Under the pieces are notes generated by a model. It was not told the DNA's origin. It saw only the letters and a list, made by a program, of their open reading frames with translations, and ran no database searches. From positions 179,614,001 through 179,678,000 of the forward strand of contig OZ024742.1 in assembly GCA_964016885.1 (NCBI GenBank): 64,000 bases of DNA. The letters run 5' to 3'. This DNA is from Eledone cirrhosa. Taxonomy: Eukaryota. This document shows, in pieces, positions 57,681 to 59,151 of the stretch. The translations under genes and the position numbers were made by a program. Every line of letters starts with the position of its first letter. Positions within the stretch are counted from its first letter, which is position 1.

Positions 57681-58061
57681 TATATATATATATATATATA
57701 TATATATATATATATATAATCCCTATCGAGCCCTCTTCGGATTTTAGTCTTCACATTTATTATTATTACTATATATATATATATATATATATATATATAT
57801 ATATATATATATATATATATATATATATATATATATATACATATACACATATATATATATATATATATAGAGTTTGTAGAGTTTTTTTCAGAATGTATTT
57901 GACTGCTATTTCTTGTAAATAAACATTCACTTCCATCCTGACGTCACTAGCCCCGTTTTTTCCTCATGTGCTTTTTCATAAATACACATGAAGGCGAACT
58001 AGCCAGTTTTAGAATTCCCTTTTTCGGATTATACTACTGTGAGAGCCCTGGTTTCTGTTGA

Positions 58062-58142
58062 GCTCTGCTGATGAATGAAATCCAACCGTGACCATCTCCA
58101 CTGAAAGTTTTCATGAAATAGTCTTTTAAGACTATACAGAGC
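58062..58142 (+). ncRNA. Type I hammerhead ribozyme (unit 1)
   Basis: gctctg-CTGATGA-atgaaa..tttcat-GAAA-tagtctt tt aagacta-TA-cagagc; predicted cleavage after A58136. Confidence 0.9.
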
Positions 58143-58690
58143 ATTTGATGTTATTCCAAATTGAAGGATAAGTGTTTCAAACTGTATTTTATCATGAGTT
58201 AAAGGTCTATAGATTTTTCCCTGGATTTTACTAAATTCTGTGGATGAATTTATATCCTGATTCTCTTTTGAGATGAGTTTGAGTTATTTTTCCTAAATCT
58301 TTCGTTAACTACTTTTCCCATCTTGACGTTATAGTCGCATATATGTTATAGAATGCCGTTAGCTTCTTGCTAAAACAATCTCTATACCTCTCATTTATAT
58401 TTATACTCGGATTCTTTTCCTAGAGTGCTTAAACTATCTGTGACTAATCCCGGTTTTTTTCATAAAAACTGTGATAATTATTGCTATTTTGCTGAACTCC
58501 TTTGTAGAGTTTTTTTTCAGAATGTATTTGACTGCTATTTCTTGTAAATAAACATTCACTTCCATCCTGACGTCACTAGCCCCGTTTTTTCCTCATGTGC
58601 TTTTTCATAAATACACATGAAGGCGAACTAGCCAGTTTTAGAATTCCCTTTTTCGGATTATACTACTGTGAGAGCCCTGGTTTCTGTTGA

Positions 58691-58771
58691 GCTCTGCTGA
58701 TGAATGAAATCCAACCGTGACCATCTCCACTGAAAGTTTTCATGAAATAGTCTTTTAAGACTATACAGAGC
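58691..58771 (+). ncRNA. Type I hammerhead ribozyme (unit 2)
   Basis: Identical to 58062-58142, 629 nt downstream. Confidence 0.9.
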
Positions 58772-59151
58772 ATTTGATGTTATTCCAAATTGAAGGATAA
58801 GTGTTTCAAACTGTATTTTATCATGAGTTAAAGGTCTATAGATTTTTCCCTGGATTTTACTAAATTCTGTGGATGAATTTATATCCTGATTCTCTTTTGA
58901 GATGAGTTTGAGTTATTTTTCCTAAATCTTTCGTTAACTACTTTTCCCATCTTGACGTTATAGTCGCATATATGTTATAGAATGCCGTTAGCTTCTTGCT
59001 AAAACAATCTCTATACCTCTCATTTATATATATATATATATATATATATATATATATATATATATATATATATATATATATATATATATATATATATATA
59101 TATATATATATATATATATAGAGAGAGAGAGAGAGAGAGAGAGAGAGAGAG

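What the first reader, a model, noticed from the sequence alone, without database searches (positions are those of the whole stretch)
57873..59025. 629-bp tandem with one complete hammerhead per unit: candidate large metazoan retrozyme / circular RNA source
Seen: two near-identical non-coding units, each with all hammerhead core nucleotides and three paired stems (58062-58142, 58691-58771), inserted in (TA)n. A diverged antisense copy at 14898-15627 ends at the same terminus and keeps the core, changing only the variable N7 position (CTGATGA vs CTGACGA), though it has a U-U mismatch at the base of stem II. Known: metazoan non-LTR retrozymes are tandem HHR repeats that self-cleave to monomers and circularise; those I recall are mostly a few hundred nt. 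Inference: a plus-strand transcript would release a 629-nt monomer, mobilised in trans by a Penelope-like RT; the long unit, 40-nt stem II insert and 8-bp palindromic stem III look atypical.
Basis: partly seen in the sequence, partly recalled or inferred. Interest (0 to 1): 0.92.

Follow-up and report, generated by a model that had tools for sequence, protein, structure and literature searches.

The report
Active hammerhead retrozyme in TA microsatellites
A 628-base non-coding repeat carrying a predicted self-cutting ribozyme has recently been copied more than a thousand times into TA microsatellites of a large genome, likely by a Penelope-type retrotransposon enzyme reading a circular RNA; it is a clean new example of a known class, the animal retrozymes.

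Summary
Window 57873-59025 is 1.83 copies of a 628/629-bp non-coding unit, each with a complete type I hammerhead, inserted in (TA)n.

It is a young mobile family. The genome has 1,064 exact 3' junctions and 845 exact ribozyme half-motifs. 71 of 73 insertion pieces, picked by the ribozyme motif, end at one base followed by (TA)n, while 5' ends are scattered. This is the target-primed footprint of Penelope-like elements. Between subfamilies about 17% apart, core, stem I, stem III and loop III show 0 of 40 changes against 91 of 548 elsewhere, and N7 varies freely.

No copy continues a coding element, and no helper was identified by sequence. Copying runs through the cleavage site, so the template is a circle (my preference) or an uncleaved transcript; genome data cannot decide. 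Cleavage and expression are untested.

The size is not atypical (published units span 51-972 bp). The U-U pair is ancestral, and stem III is 7 bp. Verdict: a new member of the non-LTR retrozymes. The scan earlier noted a similar TA-targeted repeat carrying a tRNA instead of a ribozyme in another genome.

The parts
57873..59025 (+). Whole insertion, 1.83 units, with a 5'-truncated first unit
58397..59025 (+). Full 629-bp unit in register with the fixed 3' terminus; 34% GC, non-coding
58062..58142 (+). Type I hammerhead 1: stem I 6 bp, stem II 6 bp with 28-nt loop, stem III 7 bp; predicted cut after A58136
58691..58771 (+). Type I hammerhead 2; predicted cut after A58765
58137..58765 (+). Predicted 629-nt monomer or circle; circular fold z=-3.6 against 40 shuffles, with the hammerhead not formed in the MFE fold
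   Evidence: the RNA's existence is inferred
58976..59015 (+). Predicted hairpin ending 10 nt before the terminus, kept in old copies through one-sided changes; candidate recognition signal for the reverse transcriptase (inferred)
59017..59025 (+). Fixed 3' terminus; inside arrays it continues into a short TA-like motif, the likely annealing point for the nicked (TA)n target
57914..57946 (+). Two promoter-like motifs (forkhead-type and CRE-type; names recalled, from no call); the CRE-type octamer is unchanged between subfamilies
   Evidence: function inferred
57770..57869 (.). (TA)n target tract, 5' side
59026..59120 (.). (TA)n target tract, 3' side
14900..15629 (-). Older copy, 91% identical, 1.16 units, one hammerhead at 15233-15154, same terminus in (TA)n

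Best explanation
This is a young, non-coding mobile repeat with a conserved type I hammerhead in every unit, inserted into (TA)n tracts at one fixed 3' end, and it likely spreads as a non-LTR retrozyme whose self-cleaved, circularised RNA would be copied by a Penelope-type enzyme. Steps: (1) a copy longer than about 1.8 units would be transcribed from an internal promoter (inferred). (2) Two hammerheads would release a 628-629-nt monomer (predicted from structure and conservation). (3) A host ligase would circularise it (inferred from coral, mussel and axolotl retrozymes). (4) A GIY-YIG/RT protein of a TA-targeting Penelope family would nick (TA)n and prime at a fixed internal site 260 nt downstream of the cut (the fixed end and the target are shown; the enzyme is inferred). 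(5) Copying runs through the cleavage site and stops at scattered points, leaving copies from a few dozen bases to several units (shown as a footprint). Some long arrays grew later by local DNA duplication (shown for two arrays, if the assembly is right).
For: Fixed 3' end followed by (TA)n in 71 of 73 pieces from 69 loci picked by the ribozyme motif; the other 2 are inverted partners. 1,064 exact 3' junctions genome-wide. In 96 insertions from the first 100 listed junctions the median length is 314 bp and 23 exceed one unit; 52 pass 250 nt, and none ends within 10 nt of the cleavage site. Selection on the ribozyme: 0 of 40 against 91 of 548 majority differences, p=0.002. N7 is C12/G10/T8/A1 in 31 old units, and there is one compensatory pair in stem II. 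A subfamily found by its terminal 64 nt alone has the core intact in 4 of 4 copies long enough to show it, out of 30 loci. Units differ by a median of 1.5 changes within arrays and 9 between arrays (87 full units, 29 arrays), with no mixed-subfamily array. 10 locus-specific variants sit in both end copies of an insertion, against 0.2 expected (58 insertions). RT plus GIY-YIG elements with long open frames flank TA tracts in this genome. Logic (inference): a cut 260 nt upstream of the priming site would ruin a linear template, so a conserved ribozyme suggests re-ligation.
Against: Neither cleavage nor a circle was observed. In vitro, a Poseidon element used unprocessed RNA, and its ribozyme mutants inserted normally (PMC11167929). 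Only 1 of 9 Xenopus retrozyme dimers cleaved in vitro. No autonomous family shares sequence with the unit beyond chance. Array length is not clean evidence for rolling-circle copying, because two ABAB arrays look like local duplications. 28 of the 40 conserved positions lie in the motif that led me to the old subfamily, which inflates p=0.002. Variants rare among 132 loci may be unsampled subfamily markers.
Confidence: 0.6

Rival explanations
1. The same non-autonomous Penelope-type element, but the template is an uncleaved linear read-through transcript primed internally. Arrays are kept up by local DNA duplication, and the ribozyme is conserved for another job (5'-end processing, RNA fold or protein binding).
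For: Internal initiation on unprocessed RNA was shown in vitro for PAc. Read-through of the cleavage site is expected here too. Period-1 and period-2 shared variants show local duplication, and two such haplotypes occur only in their own arrays. There is a weak, post hoc cluster of 5' ends just downstream of the cut in copies longer than one unit (11 of 75 within unit positions 366-395).
Against: It does not explain why a cutting ribozyme is under selection in a non-coding unit. Each generation would lose 5' sequence. There is no excess of 5' ends at a putative transcription start. Very young arrays carry locus-specific variants in all units and none in single units.
Confidence: 0.3
2. The unit is only the pseudo-LTR of a coding Penelope element, left as 5'-truncated partial tandems.
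For: Its layout (promoter-like motifs, hammerhead, internal TA-like terminus) matches the pseudo-LTRs of the coding families here. Retrozymes are reported to derive from pseudo-LTRs.
Against: Units join head to tail with no ORF in arrays of up to 9 copies. In 167 insertions, the 600 nt upstream gave Penelope protein hits in 10, and none is an ORF running on into the unit; most are neighbours in a shared TA tract. Three subfamilies are all non-coding. An origin from such a terminus remains likely.
Confidence: 0.06
3. Ordinary satellite DNA or a DNA-level mobile repeat with a chance hammerhead-like motif.
For: No Rfam hit; local duplications exist.
Against: Copies are dispersed over many chromosomes with a fixed 3' end, scattered 5' truncation and inverted 5' pieces. 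All 12 core bases are kept, N7 is free and one pair is compensatory.
Confidence: 0.02

Closest known systems
Metazoan non-LTR retrozymes (Cervera & de la Pena 2020, PMC7229834; Li, Clavereau & Pollet 2026 preprint 10.64898/2026.07.22.740005)
   Same: Non-coding tandem units, one type I hammerhead each, GC under 50%, no LTR, occurring alongside Penelope-like elements. A U-U pair at the base of stem II is also described for axolotl HHR_Amex2.
   Different: The unit is longer than the 170-400 nt of the 2020 study but inside the 51-972 bp of the preprint. Loop II is 28 nt and stem III 7 bp. Strict (TA)n targeting and one fixed 3' end are not described in the parts of these papers that I read. Cleavage and circles are not shown here.
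TA-targeting EN+ Penelope-like elements, Neptune/Hydra type (Craig et al. 2021, PMC8557442)
   Same: Partial tandems, microsatellite target, inverted 5'-truncated pieces, hammerhead upstream of the terminus.
   Different: No ORF. No sequence homology to the coding families sampled here, whose hammerheads are minimal and often of the U3-A8 type.
Non-autonomous Chlamys elements such as MRC1 (PMC8557442)
   Same: Non-autonomous, very active, multicopy head-to-tail insertions.
   Different: Those generally share 3' sequence with an autonomous family, and most Chlamys elements lack hammerheads.
PAc Poseidon element of Anolis (Frangieh et al. 2024, PMC11167929)
   Same: Reverse transcription starts at a fixed internal site downstream of a hammerhead; AT-rich target.
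   Different: PAc is autonomous and starts without homology to the target; here the terminus overlaps a TA-like motif.

Membership tests
Type I hammerhead ribozyme | Core CUGANGA / GAAA / UH with three stems, stem I open | tested here: met
   all 12 core bases intact in 67 of 70 young, 12 of 13 middle and 24 of 31 old units
Type I hammerhead ribozyme | Match to a curated Rfam model | tested here: not met
   no hammerhead hit at E<=1; the 28-nt loop II is the likely reason (inference)
Type I hammerhead ribozyme | Loop I-loop II tertiary contact | tested here: inconclusive
   loop II conserved (1 of 28 differences, p=0.07), but no covarying partner helix stood out
Type I hammerhead ribozyme | Self-cleavage | not testable with these tools
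   needs in vitro transcription
Non-LTR retrozyme | Tandem units each with a type I hammerhead, at least two complete motifs | tested here: met
Non-LTR retrozyme | Non-coding, GC under 50%, no LTR layout | tested here: met
   PBS and PPT were not searched for
Non-LTR retrozyme | Unit size in the reported range | tested here: met
   628-636 bp: outside 150-450 bp, inside 51-972 bp
Non-LTR retrozyme | Target-site duplication longer than 4 bp when present | tested here: inconclusive
   hidden by (TA)n; 130 of 167 insertions also have TA repeats at the 5' end
Non-LTR retrozyme | Expressed as linear and circular monomer RNA | not testable with these tools
   no RNA data could be examined
Non-LTR retrozyme | Autonomous Penelope-like elements in the same genome | tested here: met
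Non-LTR retrozyme | Homology to the pseudo-LTR of an autonomous family (24 of 57 Xenopus families matched a known element) | tested here: inconclusive
   none among the 85 loci sampled; only the best 150 of 10,596 and of 31,003 candidates were scored
Penelope-like element, autonomous | ORF with RT and GIY-YIG | tested here: not met
Penelope-like element footprint | Partial tandem, fixed 3' end, variable 5' truncation, inverted 5' pieces, microsatellite target | tested here: met
   inverted pairs at L095, L111, L123

The most novel reading that the evidence does not exclude
These insertions are a direct genomic record of rolling-circle reverse transcription on a ribozyme-made RNA circle. The helper enzyme recognises a terminal hairpin rather than shared sequence, and the hammerhead with its conserved 28-nt loop II is a structural subtype that current models miss. 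This still-active family would then be the cleanest natural system for settling why Penelope-type elements keep hammerheads.
Probability: 0.3. Interest if true: 0.65.

Novelty: new member of a known kind. Interest (0 to 1): 0.4.

Why it matters
The circle-template model for animal retrozymes and Penelope elements has been proposed since 2014 (PMC4209133; PMC7229834). The one in vitro study of an active element that I found points to uncleaved RNA instead. This family has units identical at unlinked loci, one priming site, a known target and a ribozyme under selection, so it offers a ready substrate to test circle against linear template. It also shows a hammerhead shape that Rfam misses. As a class it is known.

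Tried and rejected
Rfam scan: no hammerhead; only microsatellite and hairpin look-alikes below the gathering scores.

Sequencing runs: no RNA holder listed. Contigs of four runs of unknown kind were laid on the element and say nothing on expression. Two runs of other organisms hold a single near-identical piece of about 210-250 bp at depth under 5; I did not use this.

A pattern built from a loose end found 0 matches in the genome.

Helper search: GIY-YIG family search, 20 long-frame loci, one endonuclease query and 5 full-length loci gave no homology beyond chance. Adjacency to the largest coding family is 7 of 165 head-to-tail against 4 of 165 tail-to-tail, which fits shared TA tracts and does not name a partner.

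A TATA/initiator pair that I suspected upstream of the ribozyme is not conserved between subfamilies, and 5' ends do not pile up there.

A scan for covarying long helices outside the ribozyme gave nothing convincing.

The idea that ABAB arrays record dimer circles or a parent locus was tested. First and last units break the pattern, and both tested haplotypes occur only in their own array, so local duplication or an assembly effect is simpler.

The supplement of PMC7229834 could not be read, and preprint supplements are closed; they may list similar families. Repeat libraries such as Repbase or Dfam could not be searched, so the family may already be catalogued.

Full report
Observation. Window 57873-59025 holds 1.83 copies of a unit with period 629; the copies differ by one T in a T-run. 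Each copy has a type I hammerhead (58062-58142, 58691-58771) with all core bases, stem I of 6 bp, stem II of 6 bp closing a 28-nt loop, and stem III of 7 bp with a 4-nt loop; the isolated motif folds as the three-way junction. Predicted cuts follow A58136 and A58765. Both flanks are (TA)n, and the longest ATG ORF inside is 43 aa. The antisense copy at 14900-15629 is 91% identical and ends at the same base. Rfam does not detect the ribozyme.

Family. The window lies in a 3.0-Gb assembly. I infer an animal because endonuclease-bearing Penelope elements with a C-terminal domain are reported almost only from animals. The unit gave 2,085 first-look candidates, of which 39 were scored; these include 100%-identical units on several chromosomes and arrays of up to about 8.4 units. 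The 28-nt ribozyme half-motif matches 845 times and the 3' junction 1,064 times, each with 0 in the reversed control. An older subfamily at 79-83% identity (2,977 candidates, 40 scored) and a third found by its terminal 64 nt (787 candidates, 40 scored) have the same layout and terminus.

Insertion footprint. I fetched 69 chromosome C1 loci from the first 100 ribozyme-motif matches. 71 of 73 element pieces end at the same position (within 2 nt) followed by (TA)n; the other two are inverted partners. From the first 100 listed 3' junctions, 96 distinct insertions were resolved (4 were not). Their median length is 314 bp, 23 exceed one unit, and 74 have TA repeats on the 5' side. 52 extend beyond 250 nt, and none stops within 10 nt of a cleavage site at 260, 889 or 1518 nt from the terminus. 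A fixed 3' end with scattered 5' truncation on the ribozyme strand is the signature of target-primed reverse transcription. Partial tandems, inverted 5' pieces and microsatellite targets are described for Penelope-like elements (PMC8557442; passages and section 11 read). A cleaved linear monomer is not the usual template, since copying would run off after 260 nt.

Selection on the ribozyme. Among 114 distinct full units (70 young, 13 middle, 31 old), the commonest letters of young and old units differ at 0 of 40 positions of core, stem I, stem III and loop III, against 91 of 548 outside the ribozyme (p=0.002); the whole ribozyme differs at 6 of 81 (p=0.03). Caveat: 28 of those 40 positions lie in the motif through which I reached the old subfamily, and an extra base in the old loop III is not counted. 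Signals free of that bias: N7 is C12/G10/T8/A1 in old units while its neighbours are fixed; the second pair of stem II changes U-A to C-G; and in the subfamily found by its terminus alone, 4 of 4 copies long enough (of 30 loci) keep the core. The U-U pair at the base of stem II is present in 31 of 31 old units, like the active axolotl HHR_Amex2. The monomer folded as a circle is more stable than shuffles (z=-3.6; -3.1 on the opposite strand; -1.6 to -4.4 for three other copies), and its MFE fold hides the ribozyme.

Template. Units within an array are closer than units between arrays (median 1.5 against 9 substitutions; 87 full units, 29 arrays), and no array mixes subfamilies. Ten variants seen at only one of 132 loci are present in both end copies of their insertion, against 0.2 expected (58 insertions). 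This points to one template copied more than once, though unsampled subfamilies could explain part of it. Against over-reading: three arrays show a two-unit period with distinct first and last units, and the two haplotypes tested occur only in their own array, so local duplication adds to array length. In vitro, the anole Poseidon protein primes internally and uses unprocessed RNA (PMC11167929; parts 1-2 of 4 read). I still favour the circle. A working cut upstream of the priming site would destroy a linear template, so selection for it in a non-coding unit is best explained by re-ligation, which also restores the more-than-unit copies needed for the next round. This step is inferred.

Helper. 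The genome is rich in RT plus GIY-YIG elements beside TA tracts (10,596 candidates; Pfam). One very young family has open frames up to 1,213 aa. Their CX2-5CxxC-type linker suggests the Neptune clade (my reading; no tree was built). Their ends have the same layout as the unit: a hammerhead-like motif followed by an internal TA-like terminus. None shares sequence with the unit beyond chance, and none of 167 insertions continues a coding frame. The helper is therefore unidentified.

Comparison. Non-LTR retrozymes are non-coding tandem units with type I hammerheads, expressed as circles in coral, mussel and axolotl, with Penelope elements proposed as helpers (PMC7229834; parts 2-4 of 6 read, supplement unreadable). 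The 2026 preprint (parts 1-3 of 5 read, supplements closed) gives unit sizes of 51-972 bp, links the units to pseudo-LTRs, and saw cleavage in 1 of 9 dimers. PMC7761336 and PMC4209133 were seen as passages. The scan's index holds no look-alike sequence and one unchecked report of a 407-bp tRNA-bearing unit with the same TA-targeted pattern in another genome.

Verdict. A real, active, ribozyme-bearing non-autonomous element of the Penelope type: a new member of the non-LTR retrozymes. I am about 90% confident of the class and 60% confident of the circle-template mechanism. What stands out is the clean footprint and the long conserved loop II, not the size. Interest 0.4.

Noticed in passing
window 57478-57532 (+), 57194-57140 (-), 59357-59301 (-): A second, unrelated short hammerhead family (3-bp stems II and III) flanks the element and ends near TA tracts. 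It shares its core-adjacent sequence with the 3' region of the coding family at L040. Several more such short families occur in the fetched loci.
   Followed up: partly
L061, L077, L079, L080 3' regions: Four coding Penelope families carry minimal hammerhead-like motifs with U3-A8 in place of C3-G8, 175-235 nt before the TA terminus, so CUGANGA searches miss them. The variant is described in PMC4209133.
   Followed up: partly
L276 (G000:C3:369335500-369342500): A very abundant young TA-targeting Penelope family with open frames up to 1,213 aa and an asparagine-rich insert; 31,003 first-look candidates.
   Followed up: partly
L093, L113, L152: Two-unit periodic arrays. The allowed breakpoint intervals all include the cleavage site, and in two arrays the ribozyme inside the repeated dimer is mutated.
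   Followed up: yes
unit positions 366-395 (window 58762-58791): 11 of 75 insertions longer than one unit have their 5' end at or just downstream of the cleavage site, among them the two longest arrays. There is no such excess in shorter copies, and TA microhomology makes similar clusters elsewhere.
   Followed up: partly
window 3615-5306 and 39266-42357: Helitron-type helicase fragments (PIF1, Helitron_like_N).
   Followed up: no
window 18628-21861 and 50867-52087: A Gypsy-like pol frame (RT, RNase H, integrase) and an RT fragment followed by a weak PHD-finger match.
   Followed up: no
window 42805-43119: A 95-bp tandem with two weak histone 3' stem-loop matches below the gathering score.
   Followed up: no
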